DNA of 32,000 nucleotides. Source: Candidatus Saccharimonadota bacterium (GTDB lineage: Bacteria; Patescibacteriota; Saccharimonadia; Saccharimonadales; Saccharimonadaceae). The DNA is taken from contig MKSO01000001.1 in NCBI GenBank assembly GCA_001897305.1, positions 330,001 through 362,000 of the forward strand, read 5' to 3'. Numbering within the stretch: position 1 is the first letter of the stretch; each line of letters opens with the position of its first letter. The notes beneath the pieces are model-generated. The model was not told where the DNA came from. It saw nothing but the letters and a program-made list of their open reading frames with translations, and searched no databases. The translations under genes were made by a program, and so were the position numbers. Shown piece after piece: positions 18,634 to 19,855 of this stretch.

Positions 18634-19509
18634 ATGCCAAGTACACAAGCGTTAAAAGGTCGTATCCGCTCGGTAAAAAGTACCAAGCAAATTACGAAGG
18701 CCATGCAACTAGTGGCGGCTAGTAAGATGCGGCGTGCCCAAGAGGCTACCAAGGCGTCAGCCCCTTACACTGCTGCTGCACGTGAATTGCTGGCGAACCT
18801 TTCGCGCCATACTTCGGTGAAGGGCCATCCTTTGTTTACGCAACGCGCGGTAAAGAACCGTTTACTAGTCGTGATTGCTTCAGATAAAGGGTTGGCCGGT
18901 GCTTTCAATAGCAACCTGACTCGTCTCTATGCCAACGAACTGATTGCTGACGACAAAAGTGGCGTTAAGAATACGACTATTACTGTCGGGCGTAAAGCGG
19001 CTCATTTTGTGGCTCGCATTAAAGATACGGACGTCCGCGGCTCGTATCAAGACCTACCCGACCATCCAGATGGCAGCGAGCTCTACGCTATTTTGGATAC
19101 CGCCCGTGATTTGTTTACCTCTGGCGAAGTTGATGCTGTCGATATTATCTACACCGAATATATTAGTAGTGTGGTGCAGCGCGCTACTGTTCAGCGCGTT
19201 CTGCCGGCTGGTGATGGCGTGCTGGAAAGTGACGCTTCACCCACCCCCCAAGATGCTACGTATGAACCAAGCGCCGAGGAAGTTCTTGATGGTGTTGCTT
19301 ATCGTCTTGTCAGCGCCCAATTGTATCAGGCCTTGCTTGATTCGCGTGCTAGCGAATACAGCATGCGCATGATGGCAATGAAGAATGCGACCGATAACGC
19401 CACCGACTTGATTGACGACCTGACTCTAGAAATGAATAAAGCCCGCCAAAGTGCCATTACCCAAGAATTGGCCGAGATTAGTGGCGGTGTGGAGGCGATG
19501 CATGAGTAA
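18634..19509 (+). CDS. atpG: F0F1 ATP synthase subunit gamma
   Basis: N-terminus LKGRIRSVKSTKQITKAMQLVAASKMRRAQ and C-terminus NKARQSAITQELAEISGG are canonical gamma termini. Confidence 0.95.
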   Translation: MPSTQALKGRIRSVKSTKQITKAMQLVAASKMRRAQEATKASAPYTAAARELLANLSRHTSVKGHPLFTQRAVKNRLLVVIASDKGLAGAFNSNLTRLYANELIADDKSGVKNTTITVGRKAAHFVARIKDTDVRGSYQDLPDHPDGSELYAILDTARDLFTSGEVDAVDIIYTEYISSVVQRATVQRVLPAGDGVLESDASPTPQDATYEPSAEEVLDGVAYRLVSAQLYQALLDSRASEYSMRMMAMKNATDNATDLIDDLTLEMNKARQSAITQELAEISGGVEAMHE

Positions 19510-19855
19510 AGAGTTTGAAGGCTACAGGGATATGTTCCAGCGCCCCTTATTGACCCGTGAAGAGGAAGCTACCTTAAAGCGGGCTCGTAGCGAGGCTGGC
19601 ATAAATCCTCATGATGACCCCTATACGGCAAGTTCAAAATTTATGGACGCAGCTCATCGGGCTGGGCTGGATATCACAAACCTTGAGGCCCTCGCAGTCC
19701 ATGGCAATCCGCCACGCCCACTCAACTATCCTGGTATTACCGATGCTATACATGAAATTAAACAGAAACTAGATACAACGGAAACAATAGCACATCCCCC
19801 AGAATCCCACCAACCACCCACTAGCGATACAGAACCAGAAGGAGACAAATCATGA
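19502..19855 (+). CDS. hypothetical 117-aa soluble protein inserted between atpG and atpD
   Basis: ATG 19502 is preceded by GGAGG (19491-19495, 6-nt spacer) and overlaps the atpG stop by 8 nt. Its TGA (19853-19855) overlaps the atpD ATG (19852) as ATGA. It has no TM segment and no recognisable motif. Confidence 0.55.

What the first reader, a model, noticed from the sequence alone, without database searches (positions are those of the whole stretch)
19502..19855. Extra translationally coupled gene inserted between atpG and atpD
Bacterial F-type operons canonically run ...A-G-D-C, with gamma directly followed by beta. Here a 117-codon ORF fills the junction.

- **Upstream coupling:** its ATG overlaps the atpG stop by 8 nt and has its own GGAGG.
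- **Downstream coupling:** its TGA overlaps the atpD ATG (ATGA), and its last codons encode the atpD SD (GAAGGAGAC).
- **Predicted product:** soluble and acidic, with a Pro/Thr-rich tail ([33 protein letters not shown]...[20 protein letters not shown]) and no motif I recognise.

Tight coupling on both sides implies it is produced along with F1 subunits. By analogy, other lineages have small F1-binding regulators (mitochondrial IF1, alphaproteobacterial zeta, cyanobacterial AtpTheta). A lineage-specific accessory subunit, assembly factor or inhibitor is therefore a reasonable hypothesis.
Basis: partly seen in the sequence, partly recalled or inferred. Interest (0 to 1): 0.66.

Follow-up and report, generated by a model that had tools for sequence, protein, structure and literature searches.

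The report
Orphan gene between atpG and atpD
A real, fast-evolving 117-codon gene of unknown function sits between the gamma and beta genes of a Saccharibacteria ATP-synthase operon, translationally coupled on both sides, and about half of Saccharibacteria species fill this same slot with unrelated small genes.

Summary
ORF-X (19502..19855, 117 codons) overlaps the atpG stop by 8 nt, has a GGAGG 6 nt upstream, and ends in an ATGA overlap with atpD.

X is a genuine protein-coding gene. dN/dS is 0.11-0.21 in three pairwise comparisons, substitutions concentrate at third codon positions, and dS matches that of atpD.

The family is tiny: 8 clusters among 5.8 billion proteins. Every member with genomic context lies between atpG and atpD. 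It matches no Pfam, NCBIfam, PHROG, PADLOC or PDB family.

AlphaFold gives a ~45-residue helical core, a variable linker, an amphipathic helix and a disordered acidic tail.

X is not unique. Among 78 Saccharibacteria loci, 36 have a long gamma/beta gap, and 28 of those hold one ORF coupled at both ends. These ORFs are mostly mutually unrecognisable and mostly acidic. A few are plainly unrelated to ATPase (Nudix, 23S-rRNA-IVP).

The GGAGG lies inside the last codons of gamma. It is present in 35/36 ORF-bearing loci but only 11/42 ORF-free loci, which argues that these ORFs are translated.

An F1-accessory role is plausible but untested. A passenger-gene reading is almost as likely.

The parts
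18634..19509 (+). atpG (F1 gamma, 291 aa). Its last codons GTG GAG GCG carry the SD for ORF-X.
   Evidence: Pfam PF00231 E 2e-89; sequence
19491..19495 (+). GGAGG Shine-Dalgarno for ORF-X, embedded in the gamma codons V-E-A, 6 nt before the ATG
   Evidence: Sequence. GGAGG occurs at this place in 35/36 ORF-bearing loci but only 11/42 ORF-free loci; the difference is made by synonymous codon choice. Fisher p 3e-11. In 6 of 8 nearest discordant pairs only the ORF-bearing partner has it, and the reverse never occurs.
19502..19855 (+). ORF-X: a 117-aa orphan protein gene with an 8-nt overlap with the atpG stop and a 4-nt ATGA overlap with the atpD start
   Evidence: dN/dS 0.11-0.21. Homologues occur only at this junction.
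19523..19576 (+). Conserved N-terminal motif (residues 8-25): Y-x-x-x-F-x-x-P-x-L-x-x-EEEA-x-L. Y8 and F12 are invariant. Residues 1-18 are predicted non-helical with low confidence.
   Evidence: Alignments A2/A3; AF2
19556..19693 (+). Helical core (residues 19-64): helices 19-31, 40-53 and 60-64. It includes the most conserved block, D-x-YT-x-SS-x-M-DAA-x-x-x-GIDITNLDAL.
   Evidence: AF2 pLDDT ~84-87 for residues 21-60. The same topology appears in the model of the most distant homologue, P0007. dN/dS for residues 1-75 is 0.09-0.12.
19730..19774 (+). Conserved amphipathic helix block [15 protein letters not shown] (residues 77-91), placed after a linker whose length varies between homologues
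   Evidence: Alignments; helix 79-92 in AF2 at low pLDDT; hydrophobic moment 0.53
19775..19852 (+). Variable Pro/Thr/Glu-rich tail (residues 92-117), predicted disordered. The last codons PEGDKS are constrained by the atpD SD.
   Evidence: pLDDT ~48-54; in-frame 16-codon gap in L001
19838..19846 (+). GAAGGAGAC: the Shine-Dalgarno of atpD, encoded inside the last codons of ORF-X
   Evidence: Sequence. A G-E/D ending recurs in nearly all junction ORFs of other species.
19852..19855 (+). ATGA: the atpD start codon overlapping the ORF-X stop codon
   Evidence: Sequence
19852..21276 (+). atpD (F1 beta, 474 aa)
   Evidence: Pfam PF00006 E 6e-73
21276..21698 (+). atpC (epsilon, 140 aa, with its C-terminal helical part present)
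   Evidence: Pfam PF02823. Length is 138-141 aa in species with and without a junction ORF.

Best explanation
**Shown.** ORF-X is a genuine, translated small-protein gene restricted to a few lineages and native to the gamma/beta junction of the atp operon of a Microsaccharimonas-like Saccharibacterium.

**Expression, inferred from the sequence.** The gene is expressed by a ribosome relay.
1. An SD (GGAGG) built into the last codons of atpG starts X at an ATG that overlaps the atpG stop.
2. The last codons of X carry the atpD SD.
3. Its stop overlaps the atpD start (ATGA), so ribosomes finishing X can restart on beta.

**Predicted product.**
- A conserved N-terminal motif, predicted to be unstructured.
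- A ~45-residue helical core.
- A linker of variable length.
- A conserved amphipathic helix.
- A disordered acidic tail.

**Role, inferred and not shown.** The product most likely acts as a dispensable, lineage-specific partner of the F1 sector. It would be an assembly helper or activity modulator that contacts gamma and/or beta. It is not a core subunit and not a member of any known regulator family.

**Origin, inferred.** The gene most likely arose or was fixed in situ at a junction that is primed for translation. X is one occupant of a variable slot used by about half of Saccharibacteria species.
For: **Real gene.**
- dN/dS is 0.21, 0.11 and 0.12 in the three pairs, with Fisher p 8e-7 to 1e-12.
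- Third-position changes dominate.
- dS of X (0.38-0.66) is about equal to dS of atpD.
- Indels are in frame.
- GC is 0.486 against 0.483 for the window.

**Strict synteny.**
- The whole family is 5 clusters among 1.84 billion representative proteins and 8 clusters among 5.8 billion.
- Every member with retrievable context lies between atpG and atpD with overlaps at both ends.

**Translation signal.**
- The GGAGG in gamma's codons is present in 35/36 ORF-bearing loci and 11/42 ORF-free loci, by synonymous choice.
- No internal promoter or terminator was found.

**Fold.**
- The window protein and the most distant homologue give consistent helical-core models, with core pLDDT 70-87.
- Y8 and F12 are invariant in a segment predicted to be unstructured. 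This is typical of a motif that folds on a partner (inference).

**Hints of a shared role.**
- 29 of 36 junction ORFs in other species are acidic, with median pI 4.8.
- From general knowledge, neighbouring genes in operons tend to encode physically interacting, co-assembling proteins (Shieh 2015; Wells 2016; cited from memory).
Against: - No direct evidence of binding to F1, and no expression data.
- About half of Saccharibacteria species have only a 10-30 nt gap, so the product is not needed by the enzyme.
- Close relatives with 84-93% identical beta carry nothing there, or an ORF with no detectable similarity.
- The same slot holds a Nudix hydrolase and 23S-rRNA-IVP proteins elsewhere. The A/G and D/C junctions also hold extra ORFs. 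The site is therefore permissive for unrelated cargo.
- X evolves faster than any true subunit: 30-52% identity where delta keeps 52-63%.
- The AF2 models are only of moderate confidence (mean pLDDT 63-67).
Confidence: 0.4

Rival explanations
1. **Passenger gene.** The gamma/beta junction is a permissive, translation-primed landing or birth site in a highly expressed operon. X is a real protein under selection, but for a function unrelated to ATP synthase. Its double coupling exists only because anything placed there must pass ribosomes on to atpD.
For: - Unrelated cargo sits at the same site: Nudix in L073/L078, 23S_rRNA_IVP in L053/L065, and a weak His_Phos_1 match in L069.
- Within Nanosynbacter species with identical gamma there are four junction states: three different inserts, or a bare 14-nt gap.
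- Extra ORFs also occur at the A/G and D/C junctions.
- Presence is patchy on the gamma tree.
- High turnover of operon-recruited intergenic ORFs is documented in Enterobacteriaceae (PMC11188072).
Against: - The X family has never been seen anywhere but this junction. That is not expected for a gene imported from elsewhere.
- It has persisted there across divergence where dS is saturated.
- Most junction ORFs share an acidic, hydrophilic character.
Confidence: 0.35
2. **Translated spacer.** Selection acts only to keep the reading frame open so that ribosomes are relayed from atpG to atpD. The peptide itself has no function.
For: - Very short, low-complexity but still doubly coupled ORFs exist at the same junction. 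Examples are L007 (34 aa, pI 12), L046 (38 aa) and L049 (45 aa).
- The C-terminal residues of X are dictated by the atpD SD.
Against: - dN/dS is 0.11-0.21 with normal dS.
- Three blocks are conserved down to 30% identity.
- A helical core is predicted consistently.
- An open frame alone would give dN/dS near 1.
Confidence: 0.07
3. **Divergent known protein.** X is a divergent member of a known F1 regulator or assembly-factor family (IF1, alphaproteobacterial zeta, epsilon C-terminal domain, AtpI/AtpZ, Atp11/Atp12), or a fragment of the b subunit.
For: - X is small, soluble and helical with disordered ends, in general like IF1 or zeta.
- The X profile gives weak hits to the b-subunit coiled coil.
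Against: - Pfam at E<=1 returns no family for X and nothing relevant for five homologues.
- NCBIfam, PHROGs and PADLOC return nothing.
- A profile search against all PDB sequences gives nothing below E 0.4 and no ATP-synthase chain.
- Foldseek against PDB gives a best E of 1.3.
- hhalign against a 78-sequence b-subunit alignment gives probability 0.24%.
Confidence: 0.02
4. **Not a gene.** The ORF is a chance open frame in an expanded intergenic spacer.
For: No database family and no annotation beyond 'hypothetical protein'.
Against: - Purifying selection and a codon-position pattern.
- The frame and both overlaps are conserved in 6 divergent lineages.
- The SD co-varies with ORF presence.
Confidence: 0.01

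Closest known systems
Small lineage-specific F1 inhibitors: mitochondrial IF1, alphaproteobacterial zeta subunit, cyanobacterial AtpTheta (properties cited from memory)
   Same: All are small, soluble, largely helical proteins with disordered parts. Each is restricted to one lineage, evolves fast, and is unrelated in sequence to the others. X has an invariant motif in a segment predicted to be unstructured, as the inhibitory N-termini of IF1 and zeta are.
   Different: X shows no sequence or fold similarity to any of them. Those genes lie outside the F1 gene cluster, whereas X is wedged between gamma and beta and coupled to both. X is acidic. No binding or inhibition has been shown. Epsilon keeps its full length whether or not a junction ORF is present.
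AtpI/UncI and AtpZ: non-structural proteins encoded in atp operons (an AtpZ-like PF09527 gene lies at window 14777..15049)
   Same: They are encoded inside the atp operon, are not part of the canonical eight subunits, and are dispensable in many species.
   Different: They are small membrane proteins at the 5' end of the operon and belong to widespread families. X is hydrophilic (GRAVY -0.98), sits in the F1 half of the operon, and belongs to a family of only 8 clusters.
Operon-recruited intergenic small ORFs with high turnover and de novo origin, as catalogued in Enterobacteriaceae (PMC11188072)
   Same: They are lineage-specific and overlap adjacent genes by 1-4 nt. They sit downstream of a coding gene, have simple helical or disordered predicted structures, and turn over fast between related genomes.
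   Different: X is longer (117 aa against 15-70). It is under clear purifying selection and is coupled at both ends. It sits at one particular junction that is reused across a phylum and served by an SD embedded in the upstream gene.
The other gamma/beta junction ORFs of Saccharibacteria, found here in L003, L004, L015, L018, L034, L044, L057 and others
   Same: They share the position, the start overlap (-7, -3 or 0) and the stop overlap (0, +3 or +7). They also share the GGAGG in gamma and, mostly, an acidic hydrophilic character.
   Different: None shows significant sequence or profile similarity to X. Lengths range from 34 to 238 aa. Some are recognisable unrelated domains.

Membership tests
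IF1 (mitochondrial ATPase inhibitor; Pfam IATP) | Sequence match to the family profile or to solved IF1 chains | tested here: not met
   Pfam scan at E<=1 returned 0 families. The profile search against all PDB chains gave no ATP-synthase-related hit at E<=10. Foldseek against PDB gave no such hit.
Zeta subunit (alphaproteobacterial F1 inhibitor; Pfam DUF1476/ATPaseInh_sub_z) | Sequence match to the family profile, or a four-helix-bundle fold like the solved Paracoccus zeta | tested here: not met
   No Pfam hit, no PDB sequence hit and no Foldseek hit. The model is of moderate confidence only.
Any F1 inhibitor or regulator (functional class) | Binds F1 (alpha/beta/gamma interface) and changes ATPase activity | not testable with these tools
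   This needs complex prediction (no multimer tool was offered) or biochemistry.
Epsilon subunit (ATP-synt_DE_N / C-terminal helices) | Beta-sandwich domain, or homology to the epsilon C-terminal helical hairpin | tested here: not met
   No Pfam hit for X. A complete epsilon is encoded separately at 21276..21698.
AtpI / AtpZ operon-encoded accessory proteins | Small membrane protein with transmembrane helices that matches PF03899 or PF09527 | tested here: not met
   X has no hydrophobic segment (GRAVY -0.98) and no Pfam hit. An AtpZ-like gene is already present at 14777..15049.
b subunit (ATP-synt_B) fragment or duplicate | Profile-profile homology to the b coiled coil | tested here: not met
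   hhalign of A2 against 78 Saccharibacteria b subunits gave probability 0.24%. The weak hmmsearch hits are compositional.
Protein-coding gene under selection | dN/dS well below 1, an excess of third-position changes, and a conserved frame | tested here: met
   w is 0.11-0.21 with p<=8e-7. Differences by codon position were 9/8/37, for example. Indels are in frame.
Saccharibacterial gamma/beta junction ORFs (class defined here by position and coupling) | A + strand ORF filling the atpG-atpD gap, starting at -7, -3 or 0 from the atpG stop, ending at 0, +3 or +7 from the atpD start, with GGAGG in the last gamma codons | tested here: met
   X starts at -7, ends at +3, and has the GGAGG. 28 of 36 long-gap loci share this architecture.
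Operon-recruited, possibly de novo orphan genes | No homologue outside a narrow clade, and none at any other genomic position | tested here: met
   8 clusters among 5.8 billion proteins and 5 among 1.84 billion representatives, all at the junction. A non-coding ancestral state was not demonstrated, so de novo origin itself remains inconclusive.

The most novel reading that the evidence does not exclude
The gamma/beta junction ORFs found in about 45% of Saccharibacteria species, X among them, are one ancient and extremely fast-evolving protein associated with F1. The slot would then be a phylum-specific extra regulator or assembly factor that has diverged beyond sequence recognition.

X already falls to 30% identity where delta keeps 57%. 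Extrapolated to the wider phylum, that rate would erase detectable homology.

This would be a new class of ATP-synthase accessory protein in obligate episymbionts. Its rapid evolution might reflect adaptation of energy metabolism to different hosts or lifestyles.
Probability: 0.15. Interest if true: 0.8.

Novelty: new variant of a known kind. Interest (0 to 1): 0.5.

Why it matters
**For ATP-synthase biology.** Lineage-specific small regulators (IF1, zeta, AtpTheta) have each revealed how a group of organisms controls wasteful ATP hydrolysis. Saccharibacteria are reduced episymbionts whose energy budget is poorly understood. An operon-embedded partner of F1 would be a direct handle on that question.

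**For genome evolution.** The finding points to a well-defined natural system. One junction in a universally conserved operon has an SD built into the upstream gene. Across a phylum it holds nothing, orphan proteins under selection, or captured enzymes. That makes gene birth, capture and loss at a translationally primed site directly testable. Cultivable Nanosynbacter species, represented here by loci with identical gamma and four different junction states, would suit such tests.

**If X is only a passenger.** The practical lesson is that tight translational coupling inside an operon does not by itself imply a shared function.

Tried and rejected
1. **Known-family membership.** Pfam, NCBIfam, PHROGs and PADLOC scans of X and five homologues gave nothing.
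2. **Solved structures.** The PDB profile search and Foldseek against PDB gave nothing significant.
3. **Remote homology to other junction ORFs.**
   - All-against-all phmmer found only small separate families.
   - hhalign of the X profile against each family or singleton gave probability <=1.3%.
   - I noticed by eye a recurrent 'GL-D/T-I/L-x-x-L-E-x-L' resemblance in L003, L018, L034 and L057. It aligns to the same X block but is not significant.
4. **Frame-shifted or relocated remnants of X.** hmmsearch --max against six-frame translations of all 89 loci found only the known members.
5. **b-subunit origin.** The weak hits to the b coiled coil were rejected by hhalign.
6. **Junction ORF as a replacement for a lost epsilon C-terminal domain.** Epsilon is 138-141 aa in both groups.
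7. **Internal promoter or terminator that would uncouple atpD.** None on the + strand.
8. **Foreign composition.** None.
9. **More family members.** The metagenome contig scan returned only the same JGI sample. A search with the L001 homologue returned only itself.
11. **Literature.** No report of a gene between atpG and atpD in Saccharibacteria or CPR. One search was a malformed query.
12. **Excluded locus.** The L033 gap is a run of N and was left out.
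Full report
**1.

The window carries a complete F-type operon.

| Gene | Coordinates |
|---|---|
| atpZ/I-like | 14777 |
| atpB | 15046 |
| atpE | 15920 |
| atpF | 16136 |
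| atpH | 16684 |
| atpA | 17101 |
| atpG | 18634..19509 |
| atpD | 19852..21276 |
| atpC | 21276..21698 |

A 117-codon ORF (19502..19855) lies between atpG and atpD.
- Its ATG sits in the CAT|GAG codons of gamma, 8 nt before the end of the atpG TAA.
- GGAGG (19491-19495) lies 6 nt upstream.
- GAAGGAGAC (19838-19846) and the ATGA overlap (19852-19855) link it to atpD.
- No promoter-like or terminator-like site lies on the + strand in or beside it.

The organism is a Saccharibacterium (TM7). Its nearest species-level relative is a Candidatus Microsaccharimonas MAG (gamma 81%, beta 93% identical). The rest of the window is ordinary Saccharibacteria chromosome: a type IV pilin-like gene, Dus, glycosyltransferases and a UvrD/PD-(D/E)XK helicase-nuclease.

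**2. X is a real protein-coding gene.**

I compared the window with two ~85%-identical homologues (L081, L090).
- dN/dS is 0.21, 0.11 and 0.12 (Fisher p 8e-7 to 1e-12).
- Differences fall mainly on third codon positions, for example 9/8/37.
- dS of X (0.38-0.66) equals that of atpD (0.48-0.63), so the constraint is on the amino-acid sequence and not on the RNA.
- The N-terminal 75 codons are more constrained (w 0.09-0.12) than the tail (0.14-0.47).
- The 52%-identical homologue in L001 differs by an in-frame 16-codon gap in the tail.
- Base composition matches the genome.

**3. The family is tiny and never leaves the junction.**

- A word-indexed search of 5.8 billion proteins found three close relatives.
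- A full HMMER profile search of 1.84 billion cluster representatives found five clusters in all.
- A profile search of the 5.8-billion set found eight clusters at 90% identity.
- Every member whose contig could be fetched lies between atpG and atpD, overlapping both. These are L081, L082, L090 (a short contig that shows only the atpD side), L001, L083-85, L086 and L087-89.
- The metagenome scan added only contigs from the same JGI sample.

The alignment shows four elements.
- An N-terminal motif: Y-x-x-x-F-x-x-P-x-L-x-x-EEEA-x-L.
- A core block: D-x-YT-x-SS-x-M-DAA-x-x-x-GIDITNLDAL.
- A C-terminal helix: PGITD-x-I-x-EI-x-x-KLD.
- The SD-encoded ending PEG(D/E).

X is the fastest-evolving gene of the operon. 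It keeps 52%, 35% and 30% identity where delta, the least conserved true subunit, keeps 63%, 52% and 57%, and where beta keeps 88-93%.

**4. Structure and known families.**

AlphaFold2 on the 7-sequence alignment gives mean pLDDT 66.5.
- Residues 21-60 are confident (pLDDT ~84-87), with helices 19-31, 40-53 and 60-64.
- A lower-confidence amphipathic helix spans 79-92.
- The tail is disordered.
- The most distant homologue, P0007, modelled separately, has the same order of elements with a longer linker.

Nothing similar turned up anywhere.
- Pfam, NCBIfam, PHROGs and PADLOC.
- PDB sequences: best E 0.4, with no ATP-synthase chain.
- PDB folds: best E 1.3.

X is therefore not a member of the IF1, zeta, epsilon, AtpI/AtpZ or b-subunit families. 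The b-subunit idea was tested and rejected.

**5. X is one occupant of a phylum-wide variable slot.**

I surveyed 78 loci: 77 GTDB species representatives plus the window.
- The atpG-atpD gap is bimodal. It is <=35 nt in 41 loci and >=90 nt in 36.
- In 28 of the 36 long gaps, a single + strand ORF fills the gap.
- That ORF starts at -7, -3 or 0 relative to the end of the atpG stop, and ends at 0, +3 or +7 relative to the atpD start. This is the same double coupling as X.

These ORFs are 34-238 aa long and fall into small, mutually unrecognisable families or singletons.
- Most have no Pfam domain.
- A few are plainly unrelated to ATPase: Nudix (L073/L078) and 23S_rRNA_IVP (L053/L065).
- 29 of 36 are acidic, with median pI 4.8.

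Presence is patchy on a gamma tree. In Nanosynbacter, species with identical gamma show a 14-nt gap, a Nudix gene, a 169-aa ORF or a 131-aa ORF.

Other junctions were compared.

| Junction | Loci with a gap above 100 nt |
|---|---|
| B/E | 6/75 |
| E/F | 1/79 |
| F/H | 1/79 |
| H/A | 2/81 |
| A/G | 21/83 |
| G/D | 45/88 (this set includes the X-family loci fetched on purpose) |
| D/C | 9/75 |

The A/G and D/C gaps also hold ORFs.

**6. Independent evidence that the junction ORFs are translated.**

The X SD lies in the gamma codons for (V/A/S)-E-A.
- In 35 of 36 ORF-bearing loci these read GxG GAG GCx, which makes GGAGG.
- In ORF-free loci they are mostly GTT GAA, GTA GAA and the like, and only 11 of 42 have GGAGG. 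Fisher p is 3e-11, uncorrected for phylogeny.
- In 8 reciprocal nearest pairs that differ in gap state, 6 show GGAGG only in the ORF-bearing partner, 2 show it in both, and none show the reverse.
- Of the 11 ORF-free loci that keep GGAGG, 10 also have an ATG overlapping the atpG stop. In L074 and L011, checked by eye, that ATG is in frame with atpD.

Synonymous sites of gamma thus track whether a start codon follows. This is the signature of a working SD.

**7. What it most likely is and does.**

Shown:
- X is a translated, selected, operon-internal small-protein gene.
- It is native to this junction and belongs to an orphan family.

Inferred:
- Ribosomes are relayed from atpG through X to atpD.
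- The junction is prone to gene birth or capture. An SD is built into gamma, so any ATG next to the stop is read.
- An insert must stay open to keep beta coupled.

Function is not shown. I favour a dispensable role associated with F1, as an assembly helper or modulator contacting gamma and/or beta (confidence 0.4).
- The family has stayed at this one place under selection.
- Operon neighbours tend to interact.
- The protein looks like a binding module: an invariant motif in an unstructured segment, a small helical core, and a tethered amphipathic helix.
- Unrelated junction ORFs share an acidic character.

The passenger-gene reading is almost as likely (0.35).
- Half the species lack any ORF there.
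- Near relatives carry unrelatable ORFs.
- Obvious non-ATPase genes use the same slot.

A functionless translated spacer is disfavoured by dN/dS (0.07). Epsilon keeps its full length whether or not an ORF is present, so the ORFs do not replace its C-terminal domain.

**8. Novelty.**

No paper in the searchable library describes a gene between atpG and atpD in Saccharibacteria or CPR. High-turnover, operon-recruited intergenic ORFs that overlap their neighbours by 1-4 nt are documented in Enterobacteriaceae (PMC11188072). The general kind is therefore known.

What is new here:
- the reuse of a single junction of the ATP-synthase operon across a phylum;
- the SD embedded in gamma that co-varies with occupancy;
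- an occupant, X, that is clearly under protein-level selection.

I rate it a new variant of a known kind, with interest 0.5. If the junction ORFs proved to be one ancient, fast-evolving F1 accessory protein (probability about 0.15), the interest would be about 0.8.

Noticed in passing
Related loci L001, L003, L004, L015 (about 3745..4008 in the 8.9-kb loci); also L007, L041, L044, L046, L050, L057-L059, L062: The atpA-atpG junction also carries coupled small ORFs in 21 of 83 loci. The closest relatives of the window organism share an 81-96 aa family with a 'GVQGPL' motif there. The window itself has only 6 nt at that junction.
   Followed up: partly
L034 3557..3961; L053 4896..5282; L065 4867..5268; L026 6470..6847; L043 2879..3244; L047 6456..6836: Genes for 23S_rRNA_IVP four-helix-bundle proteins (PF05635) sit at three different junctions of the atp operon (A/G, G/D, D/C) in different Saccharibacteria. 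They look like mobile cassettes.
   Followed up: partly
L067-L080 (Nanosynbacter), junction at about 4879..5388: Species with identical gamma show four junction states: a 14-nt gap, a Nudix hydrolase (L073, L078), a 169-aa ORF with a weak His_Phos_1 match (L069), and a 131-aa orphan (L080). The insert-bearing loci share the beta N-terminus MSKTLGK, whereas the insert-free L074 has MAKDLGK. In L074 an ATG overlapping the atpG stop is in frame with atpD.
   Followed up: partly
L024, L034, L044, L051 (D/C junction); L056 3898..5271; L064 5701..7059: The atpD-atpC junction holds small ORFs with hydrophobic stretches that look like transmembrane segments in some species. In two species it holds a ~450-aa hydrophobic, transporter-like ORF.
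   Followed up: no
window 6703..6789 (+) and 5363..6790 (-): tRNA-Leu(CAA) overlaps the 5' end of the mechanically listed 475-aa ORF on the opposite strand, so the true start of that gene must lie further downstream. A tRNA-Gln(CTG) is at 31692..31765.
   Followed up: no
window 14777..15049 (+): A 90-aa AtpZ/AtpI-like ORF (PF09527, E 2e-7) overlaps the atpB start by 4 nt. It is a second non-structural gene in the same operon.
   Followed up: no
window 22506..23492 (-): A type IV pilin-like protein with an N-terminal methylation motif and a Laminin_G_3 (LamG) domain lies directly downstream of the atp operon region. Neighbours of this kind are also seen in the related locus L087.
   Followed up: no
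window 13760..14158 (-) and 28564..29058 (+): Two further ORFs (132 aa and 164 aa) have no Pfam match at E<=1e-5.
   Followed up: no
L033 about 4820..5125: The apparent long gap in this locus is a masked run of N in the public record, not an insert. It was excluded from the counts.
   Followed up: yes
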